In this document: piece after piece, positions 6,326 to 63,966 of the stretch
Layout: every line of letters starts with the position of its first letter
Position numbering within the stretch: position 1 is the first letter of the stretch
The notes under the pieces: generated by a model
What the model saw: the letters and a program-made list of their open reading frames with translations, nothing else
Told to the model about the DNA's origin: nothing
The model's database searches: none
From: Pseudomonadota bacterium
GTDB lineage: Bacteria; Pseudomonadota; Gammaproteobacteria; Pseudomonadales; JADFDG01
NCBI GenBank assembly: GCA_049324495.1
Contig: JBMOOP010000110.1
Coordinates: 26,027 to 90,026 of the forward strand
Direction of reading: 5' to 3'
Length of the DNA: 64,000 nucleotides
Translations under genes and position numbers: made by a program

Positions 6326-6420
6326 GCAAAGATTCCTGTCAGGACCGGTGCTTTGCCCGAGCTGGGCTTGTCGTGTCGCTGGCGGTGCAATTCTAGCCGG
6401 GCTGCGCTCCGGGTGCGAGT

Positions 6421-47602: not shown

Positions 47603-47657
47603 GGTGTTGTTCTCCCTAACATGGACAACGAACCCGTCCGGGAGGACGGAGTATGGG

Positions 47658-48887: not shown

Positions 48888-48979
48888 CGGGGGAAATCTC
48901 CAGTGGGTACGGCCTTGAAAAAGGCTGCGCATGATACCATGCGCCCCCCGAATTCGATGATTTCCAAGGGCTTGCGATC

Positions 48980-50380: not shown

Positions 50381-51250
50381 ATGGCCCCACCACCTTCCGC
50401 CCGCCCATCACCGGCAGGCGTCAACCCGCACGCGCAACAACCCACCTCGCTGGTGGCCTTGGCAGGCAGCCTGTGGCGCAATCGCCGGCTCATTGCACAG
50501 ATGACCCGGCGCGAAGTGGTGGGGCGCTACAAGGGTTCGGTGATGGGTCTGGCCTGGTCGTTCTTCAACCCGGTATTCATGCTGGCGGTGTACACCTTTG
50601 TTTTTTCCGTCGTCTTCAAGTCGCGCTGGGGCGTTGATGGCGATGAGAGCAAGATGCAGTTCGCTGTCGTGCTGTTTGTCGGCATGATCGTGCACGGTTT
50701 TTTTGCCGAAGTGCTCAACAGGGCACCAGGCCTGGTTCTATCCAACGTCAACTACGTCAAGAAAGTCGTGTTCCCGTTAGAGATACTGCCGGTCATTGCC
50801 ATGGGCGCGGCCTTGTTCCACAGCCTGATCAGTCTTGGCGTGTTGCTGTTCGCCTTTGTGATATTCAACGGTTACGTTCCCTGGACGGTGGTCTTGACGC
50901 CGCTGGTGCTGCTGCCGCTGGTCATCCTCACCCTGGGTTTCGCCTGGATGCTCGCCTCCCTCGGTGTATTTTTGCGCGATGTCGGCCAGACCATCGGCAT
51001 CATCACCATGGTCATGATGTTTCTGGCGCCGGTTTTTTACCCGGTTACGGCGCTGTCGGAAGAATTCCGGCCCTGGATCATGGCCAATCCGCTGACCTTC
51101 ATCATCGAGCAGGCCCGCGAGGTGCTGATCTGGGGGCGTATGCCGAACTGGTTGGGTTTGGGCGCCTATCTGGCGATGGCGATGGCGATGGCGTGGGCGG
51201 GTTACGCCTGGTTCCAGAAAACCAGGAAAGGGTTTGCCGATGTCCTCTGA
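50381..51250 (+). CDS. wzm: ABC-2 type polysaccharide export permease
   Basis: RREVVGRYKGSVMGLAWSFFNP signature, six TM helices. ATG directly abuts the upstream TGA. Confidence 0.88.
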   Translation: MAPPPSARPSPAGVNPHAQQPTSLVALAGSLWRNRRLIAQMTRREVVGRYKGSVMGLAWSFFNPVFMLAVYTFVFSVVFKSRWGVDGDESKMQFAVVLFVGMIVHGFFAEVLNRAPGLVLSNVNYVKKVVFPLEILPVIAMGAALFHSLISLGVLLFAFVIFNGYVPWTVVLTPLVLLPLVILTLGFAWMLASLGVFLRDVGQTIGIITMVMMFLAPVFYPVTALSEEFRPWIMANPLTFIIEQAREVLIWGRMPNWLGLGAYLAMAMAMAWAGYAWFQKTRKGFADVL

Positions 51251-52604
51251 TGCGATTTTTTCTGATGAAATTGCGATTCGCGTGCAAGGTCTGAGCAAGT
51301 GCTACCAGATCTACGAAACGCCGAGCGACCGGCTCAAGCAGTTTGTTGCGCCGCGATTGCAGCGCCTGGTCGGGCGGCCTGCCGGGCAGTATTTCCGTGA
51401 ATTCTGGGCGCTCAAGGATGTTTCGTTTGAGGTCAGGAAAGGCGAGACGGTCGGCATTATCGGGCGCAACGGCTCGGGCAAATCGACCTTGCTGCAAATC
51501 ATTTGCGGCACGCTCTCGCCCACCAGCGGCAGCGTGGAAACCTTTGGTCGGATTGCCGCCTTGCTGGAGTTAGGTTCCGGCTTTAATCCCGAATTCACGG
51601 GGCGTGAGAACGTCTACCTGAATGCCGCTGTATTGGGGCTCAGCAAGGAAGAAGTTGACGCGCGGTTCGATGCTATCGCGGCCTTTGCCGATATCGGCGA
51701 GTTCATCGAGCAGCCGGTAAAAACCTATTCGAGCGGGATGTTTGTGCGACTCGCTTTTGCAATCCAGGCGAATGTCGATCCGGAAATATTGATCGTCGAT
51801 GAGGCGTTGGCTGTTGGCGATGCCTACTTTGTGCATCGGTGCATGGCTCGTTTCCACGAGCTTCAGGAAAAGGGCACGACCATCGTGTTCGTCAGCCACG
51901 ACGCCAGCGCTGTAAAGCGCCTGTGCGCCAGGGCGCTGTGGTTCAAGAATGGGCACTTGATCCTGGACGGGAATGCGACGGTTGTTGTCGATGCATATCT
52001 CCAGGACTTGTTCGGCCTGGACGACAAGAAAACAAGCGGTACGGCTGTGGTGCTTTCCGAGGAAAAAATATCTGGGGGAAATAACGTCAGTCTGAAGCTG
52101 GCTTTGCCGCCAGGCGACGGCCGCCTTGGCGCGGGGGCGCTGGAAATCACCGGCATGCTGCTGTCTGACGCGCGTGGATTACCAGCTGGCACGGTCGGCT
52201 GGAATGAGGTTGTTTGCCTGCTGCTGGAAATACAGAACAAGGACGTGCCACCCGGCCAGGCCATCAGCACCGGTTACATCGTGCGAGACGGCAAGGGCAT
52301 CGAAATCGCCAGCGCGAATACGCGCTGGCAGGACGTCGAGGTTTTTGCGCCGGCGCGGGGCGGGTTTGTTCGCGTGTTGATCGAAGTGACAATCCCGATG
52401 CTGCATCCGGGTCATTACTCGCTGACGCCCAGTGTTTCCTCGATTGCCGGGGATCAGAAACAGGTTGTTCAGGATCGCATCCTGAATGCGCTTATTTTTG
52501 AAGTGACGACCAGCGAGGAAATCGTGACGCCCATTCGGTTTGCAACCAAATACTCTGTGTTGCCTTCGGGGCGACCGGCACCAGGTTCGGAGGAAATCGG
52601 CTGA
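51240..52604 (+). CDS. wzt: polysaccharide ABC exporter ATPase with about 190-aa C-terminal extension (Wzt-C-like)
   Basis: Walker A GRNGSGKST, signature YSSGM, Walker B ILIVDEAL. A beta-rich C-terminal domain follows about residue 255. Confidence 0.88.
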   Translation: MSSDAIFSDEIAIRVQGLSKCYQIYETPSDRLKQFVAPRLQRLVGRPAGQYFREFWALKDVSFEVRKGETVGIIGRNGSGKSTLLQIICGTLSPTSGSVETFGRIAALLELGSGFNPEFTGRENVYLNAAVLGLSKEEVDARFDAIAAFADIGEFIEQPVKTYSSGMFVRLAFAIQANVDPEILIVDEALAVGDAYFVHRCMARFHELQEKGTTIVFVSHDASAVKRLCARALWFKNGHLILDGNATVVVDAYLQDLFGLDDKKTSGTAVVLSEEKISGGNNVSLKLALPPGDGRLGAGALEITGMLLSDARGLPAGTVGWNEVVCLLLEIQNKDVPPGQAISTGYIVRDGKGIEIASANTRWQDVEVFAPARGGFVRVLIEVTIPMLHPGHYSLTPSVSSIAGDQKQVVQDRILNALIFEVTTSEEIVTPIRFATKYSVLPSGRPAPGSEEIG

Positions 52605-53425
52605 TGGATCGTTTCTTTATCTCCGGCTGCCAGCGATCGGGGACGACCATGCTGCGGTTGGTGCTTGAGTCGCATCCCGCGGTGCTGTGTGTCGACGAGG
52701 CGGTTGGTTACGACATCCTCGTCCGCGAATCAAAAGGCGAGCGTTGCGAGATTCCCGCCAAGGCGGGTGCGACGCTTCTCGGGTTCAAGATTCCGCGCTT
52801 CACGGAACAGTTGCTGTGGAAGGAGTTTGTCGATCTGGACTATGGCGCATTTCCGTCTTTCTACAAGGACGAAAAAGTCATTCATATTGTCAGGGATGCG
52901 CTGGACGTGATCGGATCGATGATGAAATTGAAGACCGAGGGCGGCGCGTCGTGGCTCGACCGATACGGCCGCAGCATTCTTCAGGCCCTGGTCAGGCACC
53001 CGAACATCAGTGCGCAATACCGGCAGGCATATGAGGATCTGGAGCACCGGGGGCTGCCGTCTCACCTGGTGGGGGCGCTTTATTGGCAGGTCAAGAACCA
53101 GGGGCTTCTTGACCTGCTTGAACACGGCAAGCCGGTCTACCCGGTCAGGTATGAATCCCTGGTTGGCTCGCCGGGGAGCGAGTTGCTGAAACTCGTTCAA
53201 TTCCTGGGCGTGAACTGGAGCGACTCGTTGCTCAATCACCCCGGAAGCCCGCATGCGGAGATCGATGAAAAGGGGCTGGCGATTGGCGAAACCGATCCGC
53301 TTCGAACCATCGATATGCAATCGATAGGCGGCCATCGTCAGGTGATGACCGAATTGCAGATCCAGGATGTCAGGCAGTACGTTGAATCTTTTTCAAAACG
53401 AATTGATTGCGCGATAACGACATGA
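52604..53425 (+). CDS. sulfotransferase-family protein
   Basis: 5'-PSB-like loop FISGCQRSGTTML. Later RYESLV (3'-PB-like). 273 aa, cytoplasmic. Confidence 0.75.
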   Translation: MDRFFISGCQRSGTTMLRLVLESHPAVLCVDEAVGYDILVRESKGERCEIPAKAGATLLGFKIPRFTEQLLWKEFVDLDYGAFPSFYKDEKVIHIVRDALDVIGSMMKLKTEGGASWLDRYGRSILQALVRHPNISAQYRQAYEDLEHRGLPSHLVGALYWQVKNQGLLDLLEHGKPVYPVRYESLVGSPGSELLKLVQFLGVNWSDSLLNHPGSPHAEIDEKGLAIGETDPLRTIDMQSIGGHRQVMTELQIQDVRQYVESFSKRIDCAITT

Positions 53426-56400
53426 TCTTTGACCAATACAGTCGCTACAAAGCCTGCGCCGATTTGCTTCGGCTTGCCGGCTTTTCTCCAGGTCAGTCTG
53501 TACTCGACGCAGGCAGTGGGCCGGAGTGCCTGTTCGGGCAATTCATGCCGGATGCTGCGATGACCTATGTCGATCCGCTGATCCCGGGCGGTTCCGGATC
53601 GAACCATATCACCGGCGACGTCTTTGCCGGCCAGCTGGATGGGCAGCTTTTTGATTGCGTGTCTTCTGTCGACGTTCTGGAGCATGTGCCGCCGCAAGAT
53701 CGCAAGGCAATGTTGCAGCGCTTGTCATCGTTGAGCCGGCATACCTTGATTCTCGGCTTTCCCACGTCCGACTCTTCCCGTGCGCTGGAGACGGACAGGG
53801 CCATCGAGGATCAATACCGGGCTGTTTATGGCCGGGATTATTCGTGGCTTGAGGAGCACCACAAGTTTGGTCTCCCGTCCCTCGCGGAAACGGTGACGCA
53901 GTTAAGTGAGTTGGGATGGCATTGCCAGTCGGTTGGCCACGGCCACGCGCCCTGGCTGCAGGAACTGCTGGGCTTTGTGATTTGCGCGTGGGAAATCCCC
54001 GGGTTGAAGGATGTCGTTCTGAAGATCAGCGATCGCTTCAATCGCGAATTGTATCCCCATGACTTTTTGTCCCCGCACTACCGGCAGTTTGTCATTGCCA
54101 CGCGCAATCCGGTGCCGCGCATCGTTCCGCCTGCGGGCGCAGGAAGCCGCAGTGATGCCGAGGCTCTCTTCCGGGCACTGATGGAAGATGCGCACCACCA
54201 GTATTTCGCCGCCAGCATGCGGCAACTTGTCGATCGGGAAATCCTGGTTGTCGAGCGGAATGCCGTGCTGGCTGAGCGCGACCACGAGGTCGGCGCCCTC
54301 AACGCGAAGATTCAGGAAGTGTCTGCCTGGGGCAAGAAATTGCAGGGTGAAATGGTCGAGCGCGACCGGCAGGTGGGCGCGCTCAATGCGCAGGTCGAGA
54401 AGGTCTCCATCTGGGGCAAAACCCTGCAGGACAGGGTAGCTGAGCGTAACGCGCAGATCGATGTGCTCAACGCAAAGATTGAAGAAATATCTACCTGGTC
54501 CCAGGCCATGCAGGGCGCGCGAGACGCGGCCCTTGCCGAGAAAGACGCGGCCCTTGCCGAGAAAGACGCGGCTCTTGCCGAGAAAGACGCGGCTCTTGCC
54601 GAGAAAGACGCGGCCCTTGCCGAGAAAGACGCGGCCCTTGCCGAGAAAGACGCGGCCCTTGCCGAGAAAGACGCGGCCCTTGCAGCGAGGGATGCAGCGC
54701 TTGCCGAAACCGGGGTGGTGAGCAACGAACGCGATGACGCGCTGCGCCTGCGCAATGATTACATGCGCCTGGTCGATCTCATGCGCAGCAGCCTGTCATG
54801 GCGCCTGACCATGCCGCTGCGGTTGATTGCCAGAATTTTCCGGCACGGCCTCGTCGGCGATGACCGCCGCCGGGTTGTCGACATGTTGCGGCGCCTGTAC
54901 CACCGGGTGCCGTTGCCGGCGGCAGTGCGATACCGTGTCAGCCAACACATGCAAAGTCGCCGGCGTGGTTTTGTGTTGTCGGTTGAACCGCAGAGGGATT
55001 CGCCGCTGTCGACCATGCCCGATTCTGCAGTCAGGCTGGAGGTTCAGCAGTCGGGCCTTCCGGATTACATCTTTTGGGGCGTGATTGACTGGCATTTCCG
55101 GCACCAGCGCCCGCAGCAGTTGGCGCAGGCGCTGGCCGACAGCGGGCGTCGCGTGTTTTACGTGTCGGAATCGATGGTCGACAATGAAGCGCCGGGCTTC
55201 GATATCGAGCCGCTCGGCGATACCGGCCGGCTGTTCAGCATCAGGTTGTTCGTGAAGGGCGCGCCGGTGATTTATCACTCGGTTCCGACCGGCGACCATA
55301 TCGTGCAGTTGCGGCAAAGCGTGGGCGAATTGCTGGCCTGGGCCAACACCGGCTCGACCGTGTCGATGGTCCAGCACCCGTTCTGGCTCAACGTGGCCGC
55401 TGCGCTGCCTGACGGCCGGCTTGTATACGACTGCATGGATCACCACGAAGGCTTCGGCAACGTGCCGCCGGAAATGATTGCCATGGAGCGGGCGCTGCTC
55501 GCCAGCGCCGACCTCACCATCACGACATCTTCCTGGCTGGACCAGATCGTTGCCGGCAAGACCGCTAACCGCGCCATCATCCGCAATGCCGGCGAGTTCG
55601 AGCATTTTGCACGGGTGCCGGGCGACATCTTCCGCGATCCGAAGGGGCGGCGCGTCATCGGCTACTACGGCGCCATTGCCGAGTGGTTCGATATCGAACT
55701 GGTCGCGGCGATTGCGCAGAAATTTTCGGATTGCTGCATCCTGCTGATCGGCTCCGATACCGTGAACGCCAAGGGCGTGCTCGGCAAATATTCCAACGTC
55801 ACGTTTACCGGCGAGATTCCCTATGCGGAACTGCCGCGCTACCTGCATGCGTTTGATGTGTGCCTGCTGCCGTTCAGGGTCATCCCACTGACGCTGGCCA
55901 CCAACCCGGTGAAGGTCTACGAATACCTGAGTGCGGGAAAGCCGGTCGTGGTCGTGGATCTGCCCGAGATGGCGCAGTTCGGCGACCTGGTCGATGTTGC
56001 GCGGAATCATGACGAGTACTGCGCTGCCATTGAGCGGCACCTCGCACTAAAAGCTGCTCCGGCGGCAGTGGCAGCACGGCAGGAGTTCGGCCGCAACCAG
56101 ACTTGGGGTCACCGTGCGACGAAACTGATCGAGCATGTTGAATCGGCAGCGGGAGATCCGCCGGTCAGCGTGATCGTTGTCACGTACAACAATATCGAAT
56201 TGACCAAGGCTTGCCTCGCGAGCCTCGATGCGCATTCGCACTACGGCAACATCGAGATCATCGTCGTCGATAACGCGTCCAGCGACGGCTCACCGGAATT
56301 TCTTGCCGACTGGGTAAAGCAGGCGGGTAACCGCAAGCTGATCCTGAATACTGACAACCGGGGTTTTGCGGCGGCGAACAACCAGGGCCTGGCGATTGCA

Positions 56401-56940
56401 TCCGGTGATTATCTCGTCCTGCTGAACAATGACACCTACGTTACGCCCGGCTGGGTCAGGACGATGGTGAACCACATGCGTCGCAATACCGGCCTCGGCC
56501 TGCTGGGGCCGGTGACGAACAATATCGGCAACGAAGCGCGCATCGAGATTTCCTACGAGTCGATGGACGAGATGCTGGTTCGGTCTCGCGAACACACGCG
56601 TCGCCGGATCGGCCGGATATTCCCGCTGCGCACTGCCGCGTTTTTCTGCGTGATGATTCCCAGGAAGACGTATGAGGCCGTTGGCCCGCTCGACGAGGCG
56701 TTCGGCCGTGGCTTCTTCGAAGATGACGATTATTGTCGCCGCGTGGAGCAACTCGGATTGCAGGTCGGTTGTGCCGAAGATGTGTTCATTCACCACCACC
56801 TTTCCGCGTCGTTCAACAAGCTGAAGCAGGAAGACCGGCAGCGTCTCTTCGAAGAAAACAAGAAAATCTACGAGGCGAAGTGGGGTGCGTGGATTCCGCA
56901 TACCTATGAACGGGTCGGCGAGGGGGGGGCGCCGCCGTGA
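53422..56940 (+). CDS. four-module protein: class-I SAM methyltransferase / coiled coil / GT4-like (TuaH-like) glycosyltransferase / GT2 glycosyltransferase
   Basis: MTase motifs VLDAGSGPE, FDCVSSVDVLEHV. Heptad repeats 54274-54711. GT4-like VIGYYGAIAEWFDIELV...NPVKVYEYLSAGKPVV. GT2 VSVIVVTYNN...VVDNASSDGS...NNDT...FEDDDY. ATGA overlap with the sulfotransferase gene. Confidence 0.85.
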   Translation: MIFDQYSRYKACADLLRLAGFSPGQSVLDAGSGPECLFGQFMPDAAMTYVDPLIPGGSGSNHITGDVFAGQLDGQLFDCVSSVDVLEHVPPQDRKAMLQRLSSLSRHTLILGFPTSDSSRALETDRAIEDQYRAVYGRDYSWLEEHHKFGLPSLAETVTQLSELGWHCQSVGHGHAPWLQELLGFVICAWEIPGLKDVVLKISDRFNRELYPHDFLSPHYRQFVIATRNPVPRIVPPAGAGSRSDAEALFRALMEDAHHQYFAASMRQLVDREILVVERNAVLAERDHEVGALNAKIQEVSAWGKKLQGEMVERDRQVGALNAQVEKVSIWGKTLQDRVAERNAQIDVLNAKIEEISTWSQAMQGARDAALAEKDAALAEKDAALAEKDAALAEKDAALAEKDAALAEKDAALAEKDAALAARDAALAETGVVSNERDDALRLRNDYMRLVDLMRSSLSWRLTMPLRLIARIFRHGLVGDDRRRVVDMLRRLYHRVPLPAAVRYRVSQHMQSRRRGFVLSVEPQRDSPLSTMPDSAVRLEVQQSGLPDYIFWGVIDWHFRHQRPQQLAQALADSGRRVFYVSESMVDNEAPGFDIEPLGDTGRLFSIRLFVKGAPVIYHSVPTGDHIVQLRQSVGELLAWANTGSTVSMVQHPFWLNVAAALPDGRLVYDCMDHHEGFGNVPPEMIAMERALLASADLTITTSSWLDQIVAGKTANRAIIRNAGEFEHFARVPGDIFRDPKGRRVIGYYGAIAEWFDIELVAAIAQKFSDCCILLIGSDTVNAKGVLGKYSNVTFTGEIPYAELPRYLHAFDVCLLPFRVIPLTLATNPVKVYEYLSAGKPVVVVDLPEMAQFGDLVDVARNHDEYCAAIERHLALKAAPAAVAARQEFGRNQTWGHRATKLIEHVESAAGDPPVSVIVVTYNNIELTKACLASLDAHSHYGNIEIIVVDNASSDGSPEFLADWVKQAGNRKLILNTDNRGFAAANNQGLAIASGDYLVLLNNDTYVTPGWVRTMVNHMRRNTGLGLLGPVTNNIGNEARIEISYESMDEMLVRSREHTRRRIGRIFPLRTAAFFCVMIPRKTYEAVGPLDEAFGRGFFEDDDYCRRVEQLGLQVGCAEDVFIHHHLSASFNKLKQEDRQRLFEENKKIYEAKWGAWIPHTYERVGEGGAPP
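54274..54525 (+). repeat. 3 x 84-bp diverged in-frame tandem repeat (28-aa units = 4 heptads each)
   Basis: ERDHEVGALNAKIQEVSAWGKKLQGEMV / ERDRQVGALNAQVEKVSIWGKTLQDRVA / ERNAQIDVLNAKIEEISTWSQAMQGARD. Units start at 54274, 54358 and 54442. Confidence 0.85.
54523..54711 (+). repeat. 9 x 21-bp in-frame tandem repeat (heptad DAALAEK)
   Basis: Seven copies of GACGCGGC(C/T)CTTGCCGAGAAA (54523-54669) differing only by one synonymous C/T. Two diverged copies follow (DAALAAR, DAALAET). Confidence 0.95.
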
Positions 56941-57311
56941 GCGGCCAGCTCTTCCGGTTCTTGGCAACCGGTGCCCTCGCGACGGCGCTGCAGTATATCG
57001 TGCTCTGGTTCGGCGTCGAGATGCTCGCCTGGCAGCCAGTGCGGGCGTCGGGCGCCGGCTACCTGGCGGGTTCTGTACTGAGTTATGTACTCAACTATTT
57101 CTTCACGTTCGGAAGCGATCGCAGCCATCCCGAAACGGTCATGAAGTTCTATGTAATGGTTGCGATCGGCTGGTGCGTGAATACTGGGTCAATGGCGTTC
57201 CTGACCCAGTTCCTGCACTGGGGTGTCTGGGTTTCCCAGGTCCTCGCTACGATCATCACGCTCGTCTGGAATTTCCTGATTTCCCGTCACATTGTCTTTC
57301 GGTCGAACTGA
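56937..57311 (+). CDS. GtrA-family small membrane protein
   Basis: FRFLATGALATALQYIVLWF..., four TM helices, 124 aa. GTGA overlap with the upstream gene. Confidence 0.8.
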   Translation: MSGQLFRFLATGALATALQYIVLWFGVEMLAWQPVRASGAGYLAGSVLSYVLNYFFTFGSDRSHPETVMKFYVMVAIGWCVNTGSMAFLTQFLHWGVWVSQVLATIITLVWNFLISRHIVFRSN

Positions 57312-57312
57312 T

Positions 57313-58290
57313 ATGAAAAAGCTTATCTCAGTCATTGTCCCCGCCTTCAACGAGGAGGATGTCATCGATATCTTCCACGCCAGCATGAGTGAGGTGTTCG
57401 ACAGGCTGCCGCAATATCGCTGCGAGATGATATTCGTCAACGATGGGAGTTCGGACCGTACCCGGGAGATCATCCTCGCGCTCGCGGGCCGGGATCCGCG
57501 CGTTTCGGTGATTTCCCTGTCACGCAATTTCGGCAAGGAAGCGGCGATGACGGCCGGGTTCGATCATGCGCGCGGCGATGCCGTCGCGATCTTCGACGTC
57601 GACCTGCAGGATCCGCCGGATCTACTCTTCCAGTTCGTCGAACACTGGGAGAAGGGTTATGACGTCGTCTATGCGAAGCGCACCCACCGGGACGGCGAGT
57701 CCTGGGTGAAGAAGGTCACCGCGGCGGCTTTCTACCGCGTGATACAGAAGCTCTCTCGTGTTTCCATCCCGCAGGATACCGGCGACTGCCGCCTGATGAG
57801 CCGCCGGGTCGTGCAGGAACTTATCCGGCTGCGCGAGCATCACCGCTTCATGAAGGGGCTGTTCGCGTGGGTAGGCTTTCCGTCGATCGCGGTTGAGTAC
57901 CGCCGGGATCCCCGCGTCGCCGGGGAAACCAAGTTCAACTACTGGAAGCTCTGGAACTTCGCGCTCGAGGGCATCACGTCATTCACCATCGCGCCGTTGA
58001 AAATCGCCATGTACGTGGGTTTCCTGATCGCGGCAGGCGCTTTTCTCATGGGCGGCTGGATCGTACTCAAGACGCTGCTGTGGGGTGAGGCGGTTCGTGG
58101 TTACCCGACCCTCATCGTCACCGTCCTGTGCATGGGTGGCGTCCAGCTCTTCTTCATCGGGGTGCTGGGCGAGTACTTGGGGCGGATTTTCGGTGAGACC
58201 AAGAATCGGCCGCTCTACCTGGTCGAGTGTTTCCAGCCTTCGGCCGTGAGTGCAGGTGGTCCCGTTGAGCCGGAAACGGATCGGGGTTGA
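57313..58290 (+). CDS. polyprenyl-phosphate glycosyltransferase (GtrB/ArnC-like GT2)
   Basis: ISVIVPAFNEE...FVNDGSSDRT...FDVDLQDPP. Two C-terminal TM helices. Confidence 0.85.
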   Translation: MKKLISVIVPAFNEEDVIDIFHASMSEVFDRLPQYRCEMIFVNDGSSDRTREIILALAGRDPRVSVISLSRNFGKEAAMTAGFDHARGDAVAIFDVDLQDPPDLLFQFVEHWEKGYDVVYAKRTHRDGESWVKKVTAAAFYRVIQKLSRVSIPQDTGDCRLMSRRVVQELIRLREHHRFMKGLFAWVGFPSIAVEYRRDPRVAGETKFNYWKLWNFALEGITSFTIAPLKIAMYVGFLIAAGAFLMGGWIVLKTLLWGEAVRGYPTLIVTVLCMGGVQLFFIGVLGEYLGRIFGETKNRPLYLVECFQPSAVSAGGPVEPETDRG

Positions 58291-58356
58291 ATACTGGATT
58301 GGGCGGCGACGCCTTTCGCGCCGCTGCCAACGGTGAATTGAGGATGTTTCGACGCC

Positions 58357-59388
58357 ATGAAAATGCTGGGTGATCTGTTCAGCGGCCGCGAGAACAACAT
58401 GAACCTGATGCGGCTAGTGGCCGCATTCGCGGTCATATACGGGCATGCCTCCGCCATTACGGGGCATGGTCCGGGAGATATATTCCTGCAGCTTGTTGGT
58501 TTCAAGTTCATCGGTGGCGTCGCAGTCGACGTGTTCTTTGTGTTAAGCGGCTTCCTCGTTTGTGCGAGTGCGATGAGTGTCAACGGGCTCAAGTACTACT
58601 TCGCATCGCGCCTGCTGCGCATCTACCCGGCGTTGTTTGTGTGCGTTGGCTTGTCGGTGCTGGTCATCGGGCCGCTGCTGAGTGTCTCGGATATGTACTG
58701 GTCCGATCCGCAGACCTGGCGGTACCTGTTCAACAACGCCACGGCTTTCCGCACGGAATACTTCCTGCCCGGCGTCTTTACGAGCCTGCATGACCCGGCG
58801 GTGAATGGCTCGCTCTGGTCGCTCCAGGTCGAGGTCAGGCTCTATCTGATCCTCGCGTTGGCGGCGATCCTCGGTGTGTTCCGCAACAGGGCGCTGTTCA
58901 ATTTCCTGTTCTTCGCCACACTGGTCATCGGTTACCTGAAGCCTGACGTCTTTGGCGGTTTTCTCGGTCCGGAGAACCATCGCCACGTCGCGATGATGTT
59001 TCTGATCGGGGCTTTCGCGTGGATCAACCGTGACCAGATTCCGATGAGCCCGGTGTTCATGCTGGCCTTGCTGTTCTTCGCTGCGACCTTGCACGGCACC
59101 GACAAGTTCAACTATGCCTATTCGATCCTCCTGCCCTATGCCGTGCTCTACATCGCGGTAGCTCCGGGTGGGCGCTGGTTTGATCGCTTCGGTGATTACT
59201 CGTACGGCGTGTACCTGTATGGCTGGCTTTCGCAGCAACTGGTGATGGCCGCATATCCCGACGCGAGCAATGCGGCCAACGCCTGGCTCGGCGCTCTGCT
59301 CGCCCTGGCGTTCGCGATGATGTCATGGCATTTCATCGAGAAGCCGTCCCTTGCCTACAAGAAGTTGTTTGCCCGGAAGGTCGCATGA
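58357..59388 (+). CDS. acyltransferase-3 family integral membrane O-acyltransferase
   Basis: NNMNLMRLVAAFAVIYGHA, GVAVDVFFVLSGFL, about 10 TM helices. Confidence 0.85.
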   Translation: MKMLGDLFSGRENNMNLMRLVAAFAVIYGHASAITGHGPGDIFLQLVGFKFIGGVAVDVFFVLSGFLVCASAMSVNGLKYYFASRLLRIYPALFVCVGLSVLVIGPLLSVSDMYWSDPQTWRYLFNNATAFRTEYFLPGVFTSLHDPAVNGSLWSLQVEVRLYLILALAAILGVFRNRALFNFLFFATLVIGYLKPDVFGGFLGPENHRHVAMMFLIGAFAWINRDQIPMSPVFMLALLFFAATLHGTDKFNYAYSILLPYAVLYIAVAPGGRWFDRFGDYSYGVYLYGWLSQQLVMAAYPDASNAANAWLGALLALAFAMMSWHFIEKPSLAYKKLFARKVA

Positions 59389-60803
59389 GCATGTACACGA
59401 ATGCCGGGGTCACGCGTACGCTGCAGGACGTCGCGCTAATTTTCTGCCTGTCGCTGTTGGGGCTGCTGTGGTTGATTGCCAACCCGGGGTACTACAGCCA
59501 CGACGAATTGCAAAAGCTCGATCATGTCGTCCGCTATGGCTTCCAGGAATACCTGAAAGCGTATGTCGTTATCGTCCAAGGCAGTGAGTTTGGCACGCCG
59601 GTGCGGCCGTTCGCCTTCTTCATTCAGGGTGTACTCGCGCTGGGGATGAGGGATTTCCCTTTCCTGGTCCATCTGTTCGACGTGCTCACCCACGCGGCGG
59701 TTGCGGCGCTGGTTTACCTGGCATTGCGGCGGTTCGCCGTCGAACGGCGCGTGGCGCTGGTGGCTGCCGCCGGTTTTGCGCTGAGCCCCATGGCCGTCAT
59801 TGCGGCCGGCTGGTCTGCGGCACTGATGGATCGCTGGTATGTCCTGTTCGGTTTGCTGGCGCTGCTTGCCGTCGAGCGCTTCCTGAGCGGCACACAACAA
59901 AAGCGCTATCTCGTCCTGCTGTTCCTTTGGGCGTCGCTCGCGATCCTGTCCAAGGAAACGGCGATCATGCTGGCCGGGACGATGATGATCTTCATCCTGA
60001 TACGTCCGCAGATCCTGAGGGAACGGAAGTTCTGGGTCGCGCTGGCAGTGTTCGCGCTCCCTGCGCTGCTGTATCTGTTGTATCGCTTGCCGGCCATCGT
60101 TTCCTCGTTCGGCAATCCGGCCGGAGGCGCCTACAAGGCATCGACGGGCAACCTGCCGGAAGGGATCGTCCTCTATCTCGCCTATCCCTTTCTCTATTCG
60201 GTGACGGAGGCAATCAACTGGGTGTTCGTCCCGAAGTTCTGGGTGGGCGTGGCAGTCGCTGCGAACCTTGCCATCCCGCTATTGCTGTGGCGCCTGAAGA
60301 GTGCACGGTTCGCGCTCGGTTATGTCTTTTTCTATTTTCTGTTCCTGCTGCCGGTCCTATTGATCCCGAACCGGGGAGCACATTACCTGTATGGGTCGTC
60401 GATCGTGGTTTGTGTCGCGCTGGCATGCCTGCTCTGCGATCGGGCATCGTGGTTCAGTCCGCACCGTATCGCTGCCCTCGGCCTAGCCGCCGTTTTGCTG
60501 GTGCACACCGTTTACCTGCAGGTATTTGTATATTCGATCGGGTCATGCATGGACTCGGCGATGACTGGCGTCGAAGCGAGCTATCTTGGCATCGACAGGC
60601 CTTCTGCGCTCGAGTTGCGCGCGGAGCCCGGTGCTCCTGGCCATGTTCTTCACCGGTTCACCACCGGGCGCGAGCAGATCGGAGAAAACTATCCGGTGAA
60701 GATGACGGTCGCTGAATGGGATGCACCGTCTGACGGCGCGACGCCGGTTCTGATCATGGACAGGCAGTGTCGGGTTTTTGCCCGCCTTGCACCGAAGCGA
60801 TAG
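59385..60803 (+). CDS. GT-C-fold (ArnT/PMT/GtrC-like) polytopic membrane glycosyltransferase
   Basis: Multiple TM helices. First-loop acidic motif YYSHDELQKLD. ATGA overlap with the acyltransferase gene. Follows the GtrA/GtrB-like pair. Confidence 0.6.
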   Translation: MSMYTNAGVTRTLQDVALIFCLSLLGLLWLIANPGYYSHDELQKLDHVVRYGFQEYLKAYVVIVQGSEFGTPVRPFAFFIQGVLALGMRDFPFLVHLFDVLTHAAVAALVYLALRRFAVERRVALVAAAGFALSPMAVIAAGWSAALMDRWYVLFGLLALLAVERFLSGTQQKRYLVLLFLWASLAILSKETAIMLAGTMMIFILIRPQILRERKFWVALAVFALPALLYLLYRLPAIVSSFGNPAGGAYKASTGNLPEGIVLYLAYPFLYSVTEAINWVFVPKFWVGVAVAANLAIPLLLWRLKSARFALGYVFFYFLFLLPVLLIPNRGAHYLYGSSIVVCVALACLLCDRASWFSPHRIAALGLAAVLLVHTVYLQVFVYSIGSCMDSAMTGVEASYLGIDRPSALELRAEPGAPGHVLHRFTTGREQIGENYPVKMTVAEWDAPSDGATPVLIMDRQCRVFARLAPKR

Positions 60804-60870
60804 GTTTCGCTCAGTGCGAGGCGGCCGTGAGGACGCTGGATTCCAGACAGGCGAGAAGCGAGAATTAATC

Positions 60871-61977
60871 GTGAACAAGGTTTCCAAGATTCTGTGCGTC
60901 GTCGGCACCCGCCCCGAAGCCATCAAAATGGCCCCGGTCATTCTCGCGCTAAAAAAAGAGCCCTGGGCGGAGGTGCGCGTGCTGGCCACGGCGCAGCATC
61001 GCCACATGCTCGACCAGGTGCTGAAGTTTTTCGATATCGAGCCGGACATCGACCTCGACATCATGAAGCCGAACCAGGCGCTGACGACACTGACGGCGCG
61101 CCTGCTGCTCGATCTTGACGATGTGCTGACCGCCGAAAAGCCGGACGTGGTCCTGGTGCAGGGCGATACCACCACCGTCATGACCGCGGCGCTTGCGTCT
61201 TTCTATCACCGCATCCCGATCGGCCACGTCGAGGCCGGGCTGCGTACCGGCGATATGCAGAATCCCTTTCCGGAAGAAGCCAATCGCGTGATTTCCGGTC
61301 GGTTGGCACGCTGGCATTTTGCGCCGACGGAAAGTTCGCGACAGAACCTCCTGCGCGAAGGCGTTGCCGATACCGCCATCGTTGTTACCGGCAATACCGT
61401 CATCGATGCGCTGCTGATGACGGCGTCGCGCGAGCTCACGCTCGATGTCCCGCTGGTTCCGGACAGGCGAATGGTGCTGATCACGGCGCACCGGCGCGAA
61501 AATTTCGGCGAGCCATTCCGCAACATCTGCCGGGCGCTGCACGATCTCGCTGCTCGCAACCCGGATGTGCAGTTTCTGTATCCGGTACATCCGAATCCGA
61601 ACGTCAAGGACGTGGCGCACGAGATGCTGGGCAAGTGCGCCAACTTCATGTTGTGCGATCCGCTCGACTACGCGCCATTCATCGCCGCCATGAAGCGCGC
61701 GCACTTCATCATCAGTGATTCCGGTGGCGTGCAGGAAGAAGCACCGGCGCTGGGCAAGCCGGTGCTGGTGCTGCGCGAGGAAACAGAACGGCCGGAAGCC
61801 GTGGATGCCGGCGTCGTGAAACTGGTGGGGTCCGATTACCAGCGCATCATGACCGAAGCGCAACGGCTGCTCGACGACGACGTTGCGTACCGGGCGATGG
61901 CTCGCGGTGTTTCACCCTACGGCGACGGCCATGGTGCCGAACGCATCGCCAAGGTATTGCGAGAGCATTTTTCTTGA
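60871..61977 (+). CDS. wecB: UDP-N-acetylglucosamine 2-epimerase (non-hydrolysing)
   Basis: KILCVVGTRPEAIKMAPV, HVEAGLRT, DSGGVQEEAP. GTG 60871 start inferred. Confidence 0.9.
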   Translation: MNKVSKILCVVGTRPEAIKMAPVILALKKEPWAEVRVLATAQHRHMLDQVLKFFDIEPDIDLDIMKPNQALTTLTARLLLDLDDVLTAEKPDVVLVQGDTTTVMTAALASFYHRIPIGHVEAGLRTGDMQNPFPEEANRVISGRLARWHFAPTESSRQNLLREGVADTAIVVTGNTVIDALLMTASRELTLDVPLVPDRRMVLITAHRRENFGEPFRNICRALHDLAARNPDVQFLYPVHPNPNVKDVAHEMLGKCANFMLCDPLDYAPFIAAMKRAHFIISDSGGVQEEAPALGKPVLVLREETERPEAVDAGVVKLVGSDYQRIMTEAQRLLDDDVAYRAMARGVSPYGDGHGAERIAKVLREHFS

Positions 61978-63083
61978 GGCGACTGGTTTATCTTTCGCCG
62001 GTTCCGTGGGCGAGCTACGCCCAGCGTCCGCATCACTTCGTGAGATGGTTTCGCGCGCGCACCCGCGGCGAGGTGCTGTGGGTGGATCCGTACCCGACGC
62101 GTTTGCCGACGGCCGCTGACTGGCGACGGGTTGGTCGCGCCGATGAGCCTGTCGATATCGTTGTGCCCGATTGGCTGCGCCTCGTCCGGCCCAGGGCGCT
62201 CCCGATCGAACCATTGCCCGGCTCGACCTTCATCAATCGCCCGTTGTGGTGCAATACCCTGGAGCGTGCCAGCGATTTTCTGGCGGCGGGCGATGCCGTC
62301 ATCTGCATCGGCAAGCCATCCGCGCTCGCGCTGGATGTGTTGCGCGGCGCGGCAGGCGTGCCGGCAGTCTATGACGCGATGGACGATTTTCCGGCGTTCT
62401 ATTCGGGATTGTCGAAGGTATCGATGCGCAGGCGTGAGGGGACAATCCTCGCGCAGGTTTCCCGGGTGCTGGTTTCTTCGACTGCGCTGGCGGGGCGTTT
62501 CGCTGCGCAAGATATCGAGGCGACGCTGGCACTCAATGCCTGCGCGACCGATACGCTACCGCCGGTCGCGGCTCTGCCGCCACGACCGGCGAAAGAGGTG
62601 ATTGGTTACGTGGGTACCATTGGCGCCTGGTTTGACTGGGAATTGGTGACGAGAATCGCAAAAGAGAACCCGCAGGCTCAGCTCAGGTTGATCGGGCCGC
62701 TGTATCTGCCACCGCCAGGCGCCTTGCCGGCAAACGTGTCGCTGGTGCCGGCTTGCGATCATGCAGCGGCGATCCGCGCCATGACGGAATTTTCTGTGGG
62801 CTTGATTCCTTTCCGTCTGACGCCGCTGACGGCATCGGTCGACCCGATAAAATATTACGAGTACCGGGCGCTCGGGTTGCCAGTAGCCTCGACGCGATTT
62901 GGTGAGATGGCGCTGCGCGGGCAAAATGACGGTGTACTTTTGATTGGGGCAGAAGATGAGTTGTCCAATCTGGTAAGGGTAGCGAGTCATCTTGTGCCTA
63001 CGCACGCACAGCAGCTGGAGTTCCGCACGAAGAATTCCTGGGAGGCTCGCTTCGATGCAGCCGGTATTATCGGCGGACTGTGA
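61974..63083 (+). CDS. GT4-like (TuaH-like) glycosyltransferase, paralog of the third module of the 53422 protein
   Basis: VIGYVGTIGAWFDWELV and LIPFRLTPLTASVDPIKYYEYRALGLPVA align with VIGYYGAIAEWFDIELV and LLPFRVIPLTLATNPVKVYEYLSAGKPVV. TTG start overlaps the wecB TGA. Confidence 0.8.
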   Translation: MRRLVYLSPVPWASYAQRPHHFVRWFRARTRGEVLWVDPYPTRLPTAADWRRVGRADEPVDIVVPDWLRLVRPRALPIEPLPGSTFINRPLWCNTLERASDFLAAGDAVICIGKPSALALDVLRGAAGVPAVYDAMDDFPAFYSGLSKVSMRRREGTILAQVSRVLVSSTALAGRFAAQDIEATLALNACATDTLPPVAALPPRPAKEVIGYVGTIGAWFDWELVTRIAKENPQAQLRLIGPLYLPPPGALPANVSLVPACDHAAAIRAMTEFSVGLIPFRLTPLTASVDPIKYYEYRALGLPVASTRFGEMALRGQNDGVLLIGAEDELSNLVRVASHLVPTHAQQLEFRTKNSWEARFDAAGIIGGL

Positions 63084-63966
63084 CATCATCATCGTCAACC
63101 ACAATGCCGGCGCCTTGCTCGCCCGCTGTGTCGGTGCCGTACAGGGTGTCGCATCACGGATTATCGTCGTCGACAATGACTCGCAGGACGACAGCCTGGC
63201 GTTGTTGCAACAGGCAGTGCCGCAGAACGAGCGGCTGCAACTAATCCGCACCGGCCGCAATCTCGGCTTTTCCGCCGGCTGCAACATCGGCATTGCCGCA
63301 TCAACGGCGAATCACCTGCTGTTCCTGAATCCGGATTGCGTCATGCAACCTGGTTCGCTGCAGCGCCTGCTTGCCGTGTTGCAACATGATGCAACGCTCG
63401 GCATGGTCGGCGGGCTGCTGACCAACCCGGACGGCACCGAGCAAGCCGGCGGCCGGCGTTCGGTGCCAACACCTTGGCGATCCTTGGTGCGGGTTCTTGG
63501 CCTTGCACATTTTTCGTCACGCTGGCCGGCATTATTTCCCGATTTCAACCTGCACGAGCAGCCTCTGCCTGCGGAGCCGGTCGAAGTGGAAGCAATTTCC
63601 GGTGCACTCATGCTGGTTCGCCGCCAGGCGATGGAAGATGTCGGTCTGTGGGATGAGGGCTACTTTCTACACTGCGAAGATCTCGATTGGTGCATGCGCT
63701 TTCGCCAGAGTGGCTGGAAAATTTTTTTTGTTCCGGATGCGCCGGTTGTGCACGAGCAGGGTGCATGCAGCAGGGCACGACCGGTATTTGTCGAATGGCA
63801 CAAGCATCGCGGCATGATGCGTTTCTACGGCAAGTTTTTCCGCAATCAATATCCGGGCGTGCTGGGCTGGCTGATCAATCTCGCGGTGTGGCTGCGCTTT
63901 GCTGCCGTGGTGTTGCGCATACAGGCCCGTAAGCTGTTGCCGGGTGCGAAGGTTACGCATGAGTGA
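63055..63966 (+). CDS. GT2 glycosyltransferase (rhamnosyltransferase-like)
   Basis: CDIIIVNHNAG...VVDNDSQDDS...LNPDC...CEDLDWCMR. Confidence 0.85.
   Translation: MQPVLSADCDIIIVNHNAGALLARCVGAVQGVASRIIVVDNDSQDDSLALLQQAVPQNERLQLIRTGRNLGFSAGCNIGIAASTANHLLFLNPDCVMQPGSLQRLLAVLQHDATLGMVGGLLTNPDGTEQAGGRRSVPTPWRSLVRVLGLAHFSSRWPALFPDFNLHEQPLPAEPVEVEAISGALMLVRRQAMEDVGLWDEGYFLHCEDLDWCMRFRQSGWKIFFVPDAPVVHEQGACSRARPVFVEWHKHRGMMRFYGKFFRNQYPGVLGWLINLAVWLRFAAVVLRIQARKLLPGAKVTHE

What the first reader, a model, noticed from the sequence alone, without database searches (positions are those of the whole stretch)
52604..53425. Cytoplasmic sulfotransferase wedged between wzt and the terminator-like protein: possible sulfate modification or cap on the exported glycan
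Seen in sequence: a PAPS-loop-like FISGCQRSGTTML and sulfotransferase-like length. The gene is translationally coupled on both sides (TGATG with wzt, ATGA with the 53422 gene).

Established: known non-reducing-end caps recognised by Wzt are methyl, phosphomethyl or Kdo. Sulfated bacterial LPS exists (for example in rhizobia) but is uncommon.

Inference: sulfate may be the terminal signal or part of it, alone or with methylation by the neighbouring MTase domain. That would be a new type of cap.
Basis: partly seen in the sequence, partly recalled or inferred. Interest (0 to 1): 0.6.

Follow-up and report, generated by a model that had tools for sequence, protein, structure and literature searches.

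The report
Sulfotransferase partnered with O-antigen chain terminator
A genuine sulfate-adding enzyme sits between a cap-reading polysaccharide export pump and the enzyme that builds and end-caps the sugar chain; relatives in which it is fused to that capping module suggest, without proving, that sulfate is part of a previously undescribed "finished, export me" tag.

Summary
ORF 52604-53425 (+) encodes a 273-aa soluble PAPS-type sulfotransferase (ST). Evidence: Pfam Sulfotransfer_3/1; AF2 pLDDT 93; every top fold match is a PAPS sulfotransferase; the 5'-PSB loop, catalytic Glu and 3'-PB Arg/Ser are invariant. The TGATG and ATGA overlaps are exactly as described.

The gene lies in a horizontally acquired Wzm/Wzt locus. 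Wzt carries a Wzt_C carbohydrate-binding domain. The next gene encodes a methyltransferase (MT) / coiled coil / GT4 / GT2 polymerase-terminator.

ST next to this MT protein recurs in Gammaproteobacteria, Desulfobulbaceae, Planctomycetota and Nitrosopumilaceae. Several relatives carry an APS kinase inside the cluster.

In one relative (L130) the ST is fused to the homologous MT and a coiled coil. This gives a WbdD-like ST-MT-coil protein placed between wzt and a separate GT4-GT2 polymerase. Two other ST/coil/GT fusions exist. In sister loci, unrelated sulfotransferase families occupy the same slot.

I am about 85% sure it sulfates the exported glycan in the cytoplasm. Terminal (cap) sulfation alongside methylation is my best reading (about 0.5). 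Sulfation of every repeat unit is the main rival (about 0.35).

The cap idea is therefore partly supported and untested. If true, it is a new variant of a known mechanism.

The parts
52604..53425 (+). Stand-alone cytoplasmic PAPS-dependent sulfotransferase, 273 aa. 5'-PSB loop GCQRSGTT at residues 8-15. Putative catalytic base E32. 3'-PB R97...S105.
   Evidence: Pfam; AF2; Foldseek; invariant columns in a 32-sequence alignment; block alignments to TPST2.
51240..52604 (+). Wzt ABC ATPase with a C-terminal Wzt_C carbohydrate-binding domain (the cap reader). Its stop codon overlaps the ST start codon.
   Evidence: ABC_tran 6e-24 and Wzt_C 7e-15; sequence.
50381..51250 (+). Wzm ABC-2 permease.
   Evidence: ABC2_membrane 6.5e-24.
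53422..56940 (+). 1172-aa protein: methyltransferase (about residues 1-270), coiled coil (about 275-438), GT4-like module and GT2 module. Presumed polymerase, ruler and methyl-capping terminator. Its ATG overlaps the ST stop codon.
   Evidence: Pfam and NCBIfam; heptad scan; MT-domain alignment A2.
56937..60803 (+). GtrA-like, polyprenyl-P GT2 (57292-58290), acyltransferase-3 (58357-59388) and GT-C/PMT_2 (59325-60803): likely periplasmic decoration genes of the same locus.
Evidence: Pfam.
60778..63966 (+). WecB UDP-GlcNAc 2-epimerase, a GT4-like gene and a GT2 gene: precursor supply and probable primer/adaptor glycosyltransferases of the locus.
   Evidence: Epimerase_2 1.6e-121; ORFs.

Best explanation
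The gene encodes an active, soluble, PAPS-dependent carbohydrate O-sulfotransferase.

Proposed mechanism:
- It acts in the cytoplasm on the undecaprenyl-linked glycan made by the next gene's GT4-GT2 polymerase, before export by Wzm/Wzt.
- It works together with the N-terminal methyltransferase at the tip of that protein's coiled coil, on the non-reducing end of the chain.
- The finished chain therefore carries a composite cap, O-methyl plus O-sulfate on the terminal sugar(s).
- That cap stops elongation and is read by the Wzt C-terminal binding domain as the export licence.
- PAPS comes from the housekeeping APS kinase.

Shown here: enzyme family, intact cofactor and catalytic motifs, operon coupling, conserved partnership with the MT-coiled-coil protein, and fusion of the two in relatives.

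Inferred: the acceptor is the glycan; the site is terminal; the Wzt domain reads the sulfate.
For: 1) Enzyme identity.
- establish the fold and family.
- R11/S12/G13/T14/T15, E32, K62, R97 and S105 are invariant or nearly so across 32 homologues of 38-96% identity to the window protein.

2) PAPS supply.
- APS kinase is present in the window's own genome.
- It is embedded in relatives' clusters: between wzm and wzt in the Methylobacter sp. locus L119, and also in L122 and L127.

3) Conserved synteny across phyla. ST lies next to the homologous FDQYSRY-type MT protein, usually with wzm/wzt, in:
- L001 (Gammaproteobacteria), L003 (Desulfobulbaceae), L005/L097;
- L006 and L010 (Planctomycetota);
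- L015, L016 and L093 (Nitrosopumilaceae);
- L089, L119, L122, L127, L128, L129, and the P0086 locus.
The stop/start overlap between ST and the MT gene recurs in L001, L003, L119, L128 and the P0086 locus.

4) Fusions (Rosetta stones).
- P0125 is ST (11-272), a 46-aa linker, an MT domain 29% identical to the window's MT (E 2e-26), then a coil.
- It is encoded in L130 as wecB-wzm-wzt(Wzt_C)-[ST-MT-coil]-[GT4-GT2]. This is the WbdD/WbdA split, with ST in the terminator protein.
- P0152 is ST-coil-MT-coil-GT2. P0240 is ST-coil-GT.

5) The slot after wzt and the N-terminal tip of the MT protein form a variable platform for extra modifying enzymes.
- Sulfotransfer_1-type ST plus carbamoyltransferase in L083, L090 and L092.
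- An extra Sulfotransfer_2-type ST in L127, and a weaker candidate in L122 (E 0.0024, below the Pfam cut-off).
- A GT17 domain fused to the MT in L084.
- A second MT fused in L085, L091 and L101.

6) Precedent. In validated systems the domains at the distal end of the coiled coil are the terminators, and a Wzt CBM accompanies every terminated O-antigen. K. pneumoniae O7 ORF6 is MT-kinase-coil-GT-GT (PMC11231755).
Against: - The window's ST is a separate protein without a coiled coil. Nothing positions it at the chain end.
- Close family members sit directly after Wzt proteins that lack a binding domain (L013, L049, L032, L043 and the archaeal loci). Others sit in clusters with no wzm/wzt within 8 kb, for example L009, L011 and L012 next to WbsX and GT2_5. 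The family is therefore not cap-specific.
- Dedicated PAPS-synthesis genes inside a cluster are the published hallmark of bulk, per-repeat sulfated polysaccharides (PMC11641403).
- Wzt binding-domain sequence clusters do not follow ST family or polymerase type.
- Some loci with this MT-type terminator show no sulfotransferase of the window's family, and none in the slot where it was Pfam-scanned: L084, L085, L086, L088, L098, L103, L105. Methyl alone may therefore suffice as a cap.
- No chemistry was measured.
Confidence: 0.5

Rival explanations
1. Repeat-unit decoration. The ST sulfates a sugar in every, or many, repeat units of the growing lipid-linked polymer. This makes an anionic sulfated O-antigen or capsule-like glycan. 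The cap proper is only the O-methyl group added by the tethered methyltransferase.
For: - The ST is free-standing with no coil.
- The family is common beside CBD-less Wzt and in glycan clusters without an ABC transporter in view.
- APS kinase genes are embedded in relatives' clusters. This matches the published hallmark of bulk-sulfated polysaccharides exported by ABC transporters (Vibrio sp. KMM 8419, PMC11641403).
- Some loci with this MT-type terminator show no ST of the window's family, and none in the slot where that was Pfam-scanned.
Against: - ST-MT-coil and ST-coil-GT fusions place the ST on the distal, terminator side of the ruler. That is an odd place for an enzyme that must act on every repeat.
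- Gene order is tight and recurrent, with stop/start overlap to both the cap reader and the terminator.
Confidence: 0.35
2. The ST acts on another acceptor: the reducing-end primer/adaptor, lipid A-core, or a small molecule or lipid unrelated to the polymer. It is merely co-transcribed with the locus.
For: Acceptor specificity cannot be read from the sequence. The locus also holds a second, free GT4-like plus GT2 pair that may build an adaptor.
Against: Adjacency to the MT-coil protein is conserved across phyla even when the rest of the locus differs, and the two are fused in relatives.
Confidence: 0.08
3. Protein or peptide tyrosine sulfotransferase (TPST/RaxST-like), since the nearest solved structures are TPST1/2.
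For: The best sequence and fold matches in the PDB are TPST2 and TPST1.
Against: - Identity is only 16-19%, and TM-scores of about 0.6 are shared with CurM ST.
- Few bacterial carbohydrate sulfotransferases of this clade have solved structures, so the top hit is uninformative on the acceptor.
- Across more than 20 loci the context is always glycan biosynthesis. There is no RaxX-like peptide gene or peptidase-type ABC exporter.
Confidence: 0.03

Closest known systems
WbdD of E. coli O9a / K. pneumoniae O3 (kinase plus methyltransferase terminator on a coiled-coil ruler, with a Wzt CBM reading the methyl-phosphate cap)
   Same: - A two-enzyme capping logic next to wzt.
- A coiled-coil ruler and a Wzt C-terminal binding domain.
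- The relative L130 has the same split: a terminator protein (ST-MT-coil) and a separate two-module polymerase.
   Different: - A sulfotransferase replaces the kinase.
- In the window the ST is a separate polypeptide and the MT is fused to the polymerase.
- The MT family (FDQYSRY type) gave no PDB hit to WbdD.
- The products are probably separate O-methyl and O-sulfate groups rather than a methylated anion. That is an inference.
K. pneumoniae O7 ORF6 (MT-kinase-CBM-coiled coil-GT2-GT2; experimentally a methyl-phosphate terminator plus polymerase; PMC11231755)
   Same: - A single protein with an N-terminal MT, a coiled coil and two C-terminal GT modules.
- The locus has wzm and wzt(CBM).
   Different: - The window protein has no kinase-sized domain between the MT and the coil. 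The MT ends near residue 270 and the coil starts near residue 275.
- The anion-adding enzyme would be the adjacent ST.
- The GT modules are GT4-like plus GT2 rather than GT2 plus GT2.
Aeromonas salmonicida wb(salmo) ORF19 'Hyp', a 216-aa sulfotransferase-domain protein encoded between wzt and wbbB (PMC4483657)
   Same: - Same position: wzt, then a sulfotransferase-domain gene, then a large polymerase-terminator.
- Similar accessory genes: WecB, GT2, an ArnT-like GT-C and acyltransferase-3.
- Function unassigned. The authors note that no sulfate appears in the published O-antigen structure, as expected if it were a substoichiometric or labile cap.
   Different: - The terminator there is a WbbB (Kdo-transferase) type.
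- The protein is shorter.
Sulfated capsular polysaccharide loci with cysDNC plus sulfotransferases and ABC export (Vibrio sp. KMM 8419, PMC11641403); rhizobial LPS/K-antigen sulfation (LpsS, KpsS; from memory)
   Same: - A cytoplasmic PAPS-dependent ST in a polysaccharide locus with an ABC exporter.
- PAPS genes are embedded in relatives' clusters.
   Different: - Those sulfate every repeat unit, or the core.
- They have no coiled-coil terminator or Wzt CBM partnership.
- No ST-terminator fusions are reported for them.
TPST1/2 and the CurM/OLS sulfotransferase domains (nearest solved structures)
   Same: The fold, the 5'-PSB and 3'-PB motifs, the Glu base position and the C-terminal YE.LV..P...L....FLG..W.D..L.H block.
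   Different: 16-20% identity, with acceptors that are peptides or acyl-ACP. The context here is glycan assembly.

Membership tests
PAPS-dependent sulfotransferase superfamily (Pfam Sulfotransfer_3 / Sulfotransfer_1) | 5'-phosphosulfate-binding loop (GxxRSGTT / PKxGTT type) at the end of strand 1 | tested here: met
   GCQRSGTT at residues 8-15, nearly invariant in 32 homologues. It aligns to GVPRSGTT of TPST2.
PAPS-dependent sulfotransferase superfamily (Pfam Sulfotransfer_3 / Sulfotransfer_1) | 3'-phosphate-binding motif with conserved Arg and Ser eight residues apart | tested here: met
   VRDALDVIGS. R97 and S105 are invariant. The motif aligns to vRDgrasvhS of TPST2.
PAPS-dependent sulfotransferase superfamily (Pfam Sulfotransfer_3 / Sulfotransfer_1) | Catalytic base | tested here: met
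   E32 in the invariant C-x-D-E block aligns with the second Glu of the CGEE block of TPST2. Its identity as TPST2 Glu99 is from memory.
PAPS-dependent sulfotransferase superfamily (Pfam Sulfotransfer_3 / Sulfotransfer_1) | Sulfotransferase alpha/beta fold | tested here: met
   AF2 pLDDT 93.4. Foldseek gives 91 PDB hits at E <= 0.001; all 50 listed are sulfotransferases, the top being TPST2 at E 2e-9, TM 0.60.
PAPS-dependent sulfotransferase superfamily (Pfam Sulfotransfer_3 / Sulfotransfer_1) | Donor available in the cell (APS kinase) | tested here: met
   PF01583 hit at 4e-70 in the window's own genome. It is a core gene in the genus, 8 of 8 genomes. It lies inside the cluster in L119, L122 and L127.
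PAPS-dependent sulfotransferase superfamily (Pfam Sulfotransfer_3 / Sulfotransfer_1) | Measured sulfotransfer activity | not testable with these tools
   Needs an enzyme assay.
Chain-terminating cap enzymes of ABC-transporter-dependent glycans (WbdD / WbbB N-domain / KpO7 ORF6 type) | Partner Wzt carries a C-terminal carbohydrate-binding module | tested here: met
   Wzt_C at 7e-15 in the window's Wzt. Also present in L001, L089, L119, L122, L125, L128, L129 and L130.
Chain-terminating cap enzymes of ABC-transporter-dependent glycans (WbdD / WbbB N-domain / KpO7 ORF6 type) | Catalytic domain tethered at the distal end of a coiled-coil ruler | tested here: not met
   The window ST is stand-alone with no heptad segment. 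The feature is met only in fused homologues: P0125/L130, P0152 and P0240.
Chain-terminating cap enzymes of ABC-transporter-dependent glycans (WbdD / WbbB N-domain / KpO7 ORF6 type) | Strict co-occurrence with cap-reading Wzt | tested here: inconclusive
   - Homologues of >=49% identity whose flanks are in view lie directly beside wzt, with a Wzt_C domain scored in all but L127; an MT-type partner is seen in most. L002 and L004 are cut off or unclear.
- More distant members occur with CBD-less Wzt or with no Wzt nearby.
- Binding-domain clusters do not track the ST.
Chain-terminating cap enzymes of ABC-transporter-dependent glycans (WbdD / WbbB N-domain / KpO7 ORF6 type) | Modification confined to the non-reducing terminal residue; it stops elongation and is required for export | not testable with these tools
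   Needs glycan structure determination, mutants and in vitro reconstitution.
Protein tyrosine sulfotransferases (TPST / RaxST) | Peptide substrate gene and a dedicated peptide secretion system nearby; Tyr-peptide binding cleft | tested here: not met
   The context is a glycan locus in the window and in every related locus examined. Similarity to TPST is limited to the cofactor-binding core.
Repeat-unit polysaccharide sulfotransferases | ST plus PAPS-synthesis genes inside a polysaccharide locus | tested here: met
   Met in relatives L119, L122 and L127. In the window the APS kinase lies elsewhere, on contig C141.
Repeat-unit polysaccharide sulfotransferases | About one sulfate per repeat unit | not testable with these tools
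   Needs compositional or NMR analysis.

The most novel reading that the evidence does not exclude
Sulfate esterification of the non-reducing end, here combined with O-methylation, is a further chemical class of chain-terminating, export-licensing cap in ABC-transporter-dependent glycan assembly. The known classes are methyl, methyl-phosphate and Kdo.

The slot between wzt and the ruler protein, and the tip of the ruler itself, would then be a modular cap-chemistry cassette. Different lineages plug in sulfotransferases of at least two, possibly three, unrelated Pfam families, carbamoyltransferases, extra methyltransferases or a glycosyltransferase. This diversifies the terminal epitope across bacteria and even Nitrosopumilaceae archaea.

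A more extreme sub-reading is that the MT methylates the sulfate, as WbdD methylates phosphate. I consider this chemically unlikely, because alkyl methyl sulfates are reactive. Moreover, MT domains 56-64% identical to the window's occur in loci where no ST was found in view (L084, L086).
Probability: 0.45. Interest if true: 0.8.

Novelty: new variant of a known kind. Interest (0 to 1): 0.6.

Why it matters
Chain termination coupled to cap-dependent export sets O-antigen length and acts as quality control. Only three cap chemistries (methyl, methyl-phosphate, Kdo) have been demonstrated.

A sulfate-containing cap would:
- add a new chemistry and a new enzyme class (PAPS sulfotransferases) to this paradigm;
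- explain orphan sulfotransferase genes next to wzt, such as A. salmonicida ORF19, unexplained since 2015;
- predict a class of Wzt binding domains that read sulfated sugars.

It would also warn that terminal sulfates are being missed in published O-antigen structures, because they are substoichiometric and acid-labile.

The L130-type ST-MT-coil protein and the window's split version give directly testable constructs.

If the ST instead decorates each repeat, the locus is still a compact, transferable route to a sulfated bacterial polysaccharide.

Tried and rejected
- **Binding-domain covariation.** I asked whether Wzt binding-domain similarity tracks ST presence after allowing for ATPase-domain similarity. 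First figures looked promising: CBD 45-65% in ST+ loci against 27-33% in L083, L084 and L088 at similar NBD identity. The full matrix shows two CBD clusters that follow neither ST family nor polymerase type. Some 'ST-less' loci in fact carry another ST family. I dropped this as evidence.
- **APS kinase co-acquisition.** Rejected. APS kinase is a core gene in all 8 genomes of the genus, while the ST is unique to this one.
- **GC anomaly of the locus.** None.
- **Internal promoters or terminators around the ST.** Counts are at shuffle background.
- **Homology to the A. salmonicida ORF19 sulfotransferase.** A search with the 215-aa Sulfotransfer_2 protein of L127 returned no Aeromonas-named hit among the best 120.
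- **Mann, Kimber and Whitfield 2019 (Glycobiology 29:822), and the 2020 JBC O-antigen review that I took PMC7397119 to be.** Neither is held. I could not check whether sulfotransferase terminators were already predicted there.
- **Composite alignment to model the ST-MT-coil fusion with AF2.** MAFFT misplaced the MT rows, so I did not run the model.
- **Context of the P0240 and P0201 fusions.** The contigs are too short to be informative.
- **Tyrosine-sulfotransferase reading.** Rejected on context.
Full report
**Observation**

The ORF at 52604-53425 (+) is real and encodes 273 aa starting MDRFFISGCQRSGTTML.
- The wzt stop (TGA, 52602-52604) shares one base with the ST start (ATG, 52604-52606).
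- The ST stop (TGA, 53423-53425) lies inside the ATGA that starts the next gene at 53422.
- Promoter-like and terminator-like matches in 48.5-58.5 kb are at shuffle background, and there are no intergenic gaps here.

**What the protein is**

- Pfam gives Sulfotransfer_3 (5.2e-16) and Sulfotransfer_1 (1.2e-9), both above their curated cut-offs.
- An AF2 model built on 32 homologues has mean pLDDT 93.4 and pTM 0.90.
- All 50 listed Foldseek PDB matches (91 at E <= 0.001) are PAPS-dependent sulfotransferases. The list is led by TPST2/TPST1 and the CurM and olefin-synthase ST domains (E 2e-9 to 5e-7, TM about 0.6).
- Homologues range from 96% down to 38% identity. Across them the following are invariant or nearly so: the 5'-PSB loop GCQRSGTT (8-15), the C29-x-D31-E32 block, K62-x-P64-R65, and R97...D101...S105.
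- HMMER aligns these blocks onto the corresponding TPST2 blocks: PRSGTT, CGEE, vRD....vhS, and YEqLV..P...L....FLG..W.D..L.H.
- There is no signal peptide, membrane segment or heptad region.

The protein is therefore a soluble, cytoplasmic and apparently catalytically competent sulfotransferase. The family is large: 25,485 cluster representatives (50%-identity clusters) at E <= 1e-3, of which 218 are at E <= 1e-30.

**Host and locus**

- Housekeeping genes place the genome among uncultured Gammaproteobacteria near Moraxellaceae/Perlucidibaca.
- The genome has an APS kinase, so PAPS is available. That gene is core to the genus, 8 of 8 genomes.
- In the 61 genomes searched (the window's own plus 60 relatives), the ST occurs only in the window's genome and one other. 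None of the seven congeners has it.
- The FDQYSRY-type methyltransferase of the next gene occurs only in the window's genome.
- The polysaccharide locus is therefore an accessory, horizontally acquired trait, although its G+C is unremarkable.

Gene order in the locus:
- wzm;
- wzt (ABC_tran plus the Wzt_C binding domain);
- the ST;
- a 1172-aa protein with an N-terminal methyltransferase, a coiled coil of roughly 160 residues, a TuaH-like GT4 module and a GT2 module;
- GtrA/GtrB-like genes, acyltransferase-3 and a GT-C;
- WecB;
- a free GT4-like plus GT2 pair.

**Comparative evidence, ST side**

A scan of species-representative genomes found 322 relatives. For the 80 kept, I mapped the window's locus proteins onto each.

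The ST lies next to a homologue of the methyltransferase protein in:
- L001 (Gammaproteobacteria, ST 72% identical);
- L003 (Desulfobulbaceae);
- L005;
- L006 and L010 (Planctomycetota);
- L015 and L016 (Nitrosopumilaceae archaea).

Look-ups of closer metagenomic homologues (49-71% identity) gave the same core each time:
- L119: Methylobacter sp., with the order wzm, APS kinase, wzt, ST, MT-coil-GT4-GT2.
- L122, L127, L128, L129 and L089.
- The P0086 locus, where the ST overlaps an MT-GT2 protein.

The 1-nt wzt/ST overlap and the 4-nt ST/MT overlap recur in several of these. APS kinase genes lie inside the clusters of L119, L122 and L127. That argues sulfation is a real, selected function of these loci.

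More distant family members (below about 45% identity) are less specific:
- Some directly follow Wzt proteins without a binding domain: L013, L049, L032, L043 and the archaeal loci.
- Others sit in glycan clusters with no ABC transporter within 8 kb, for example next to WbsX and GT2_5 in L009, L011 and L012.

**Comparative evidence, terminator side**

Searching metagenomes with the methyltransferase domain (alignment A2) gave 37 loci. The space between wzt and the methyltransferase, and the N-terminal tip of the methyltransferase protein, turn out to be a variable platform:
- the window-type ST: L089, L093/L094 and L097 in this set, besides the window and the ST-side loci above;
- a Sulfotransfer_1-type ST of 264-265 aa plus a carbamoyltransferase: L083, L090, L092;
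- an additional Sulfotransfer_2-type ST in L127, and a weaker candidate in L122 (E 0.0024, below the Pfam cut-off);
- a GT17-like domain fused in front of the methyltransferase: L084;
- a second methyltransferase fused in front: L085, L091, L101;
- nothing in the slot: L086, and the more distant WbdD(O8)-like loci L107-L117.

Sulfotransferases of two Pfam families (Sulfotransfer_3-type and Sulfotransfer_1-type) have thus been recruited immediately after wzt and before the terminator. A Sulfotransfer_2-type ST joins the window-type ST in that stretch in L127.

The published A. salmonicida O-antigen cluster has the same arrangement with a WbbB-type terminator: Wzt, then a 216-aa sulfotransferase-domain protein, then WbbB, WecB, GT2, an ArnT-like protein and acyltransferase-3. 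The authors could not explain it, because no sulfate is in the reported structure (PMC4483657).

**Fusions**

Among the 150 best family representatives, nine are multidomain.
- **P0125 (640 aa).** It consists of ST (11-272), a 46-residue linker, a methyltransferase domain (319-545) and a heptad segment (584-617).
  - The methyltransferase domain is homologous to the window's: 29% identity over 242 residues, E 2e-26, with the FDQY.RY, LD.G, D.LEH and EEH..GLP motifs.
  - Its locus L130 reads wecB, wzm, wzt with Wzt_C, [ST-MT-coil], [GT4-GT2, 35% and 49% identical to the window's modules].
  - This is the window's system with the domain boundary moved. The ST is part of a WbdD-like terminator protein and the polymerase is separate.
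  - The in-frame linker argues against a sequencing artefact at an ATGA overlap.
- **P0152 (949 aa)** is ST-coil-MT-coil-GT2.
- **P0240** is ST-coil-GT.

In every characterised system the catalytic domains distal to the coiled coil are the terminators, and a Wzt binding module accompanies every terminated O-antigen. K. pneumoniae O7 ORF6 (MT-kinase-coil-GT-GT) is the nearest architecture (PMC11231755).

The window protein has no room for a kinase: the MT ends near residue 270 and the coil begins near 275. The neighbouring ST is therefore the natural candidate for the anion-adding partner.

**Interpretation**

I am confident (about 0.85) that the enzyme sulfates the glycan made by this locus, in the cytoplasm, before Wzm/Wzt export.

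Where on the glycan it acts is not settled.
- The fusions, the gene order, the coupling to both the cap reader and the terminator, and the modular tip/slot pattern favour action on the non-reducing terminus together with the methyltransferase. That would give a composite methyl plus sulfate cap (about 0.5).
- MT domains 56-64% identical to the window's occur in L084 and L086, where no sulfotransferase was found in view. The methyl group therefore most likely goes onto a sugar hydroxyl, not onto the sulfate. A methyl-sulfate diester would also be chemically reactive.
- The main rival (about 0.35) is sulfation of every repeat unit. It is supported by four points:
  - the stand-alone nature of the window's ST;
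  - the family's occurrence with CBD-less Wzt and outside ABC systems;
  - in-cluster PAPS genes, which are the published hallmark of bulk-sulfated polysaccharides (PMC11641403);
  - the failure of Wzt binding-domain clusters to track ST presence.
- Minor rivals are another acceptor (0.08) and protein tyrosine sulfation (0.03).

**Relation to earlier notes of this scan**

Word search shows that other agents have repeatedly flagged sulfotransferase/coiled-coil/GT fusions beside Wzt-CBD in other genomes and proposed sulfate caps. I treat these as leads only.

The distinctive point of this window is the split, two-enzyme version, with a free ST and the MT on the ruler, and its fused counterpart.

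**Novelty and limits**

No sulfate cap has been demonstrated, to my knowledge or in the papers I could read. It may already list sulfotransferase terminators.

I rate this a new variant of a known kind. It is of moderate to high interest because it is directly testable. See the decisive next steps.

Noticed in passing
L119:7972-8661 (Methylobacter sp. GCA_029945545.1 contig): An APS kinase gene is inserted between wzm and wzt of the homologous locus. A KilA-N domain gene (5801-6589) sits inside the rmlBDAC block.
   Followed up: partly
L083:5657-8977; L092:7452-10011; L090:1674-6605: Sister loci carry a Sulfotransfer_1-type ST plus a NodU/CmcH-type carbamoyltransferase between wzt and the MT-coil terminator (L083 also has an extra MT). 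This suggests carbamoylated, sulfated and methylated glycan ends, reminiscent of Nod-factor decorations.
   Followed up: partly
L090:2462-4918: An 818-aa SIR2_2-domain protein, of a defence-like type, is inserted in the middle of the polysaccharide locus between the ST and the carbamoyltransferase.
   Followed up: no
L084:7018-7884; L085:4911-5525; L091:9392-10003; L101:3289-4023: The N-terminal tip of the MT-coil protein carries extra fused domains in relatives: a GT17-like glycosyltransferase in L084, and a second class-I methyltransferase in L085, L091 and L101.
   Followed up: partly
L015, L016, L093/L094 (Nitrosopumilaceae / Nitrosarchaeum): Ammonia-oxidising archaea carry the bacterial-type set: ST, FDQYSRY-MT-GT4, GT2 and wzm/wzt, with a short, CBD-less Wzt. 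This implies cross-domain transfer of the module.
   Followed up: no
P0218 (1298 aa): A single protein with four tandem sulfotransferase domains of this family.
   Followed up: no
window 53422-56940 versus L003:1562-4688 and L130:2989-7222: The same domain set is partitioned differently in different lineages: ST | MT-coil-GT4-GT2 in the window, ST | MT-coil | GT4-GT2 in L003, and ST-MT-coil | GT4-GT2 in L130. A conserved S-x-S-W-R-L-T-x-P-L-R-like motif follows the coil (window protein residues about 449-460).
   Followed up: partly
window 47478-48992 (+) and 48746-50311 (-): Long ORFs of 504 and 521 aa lie antisense to serA and the FAD oxidase. They look like spurious high-GC shadow frames, not genes.
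   Followed up: no
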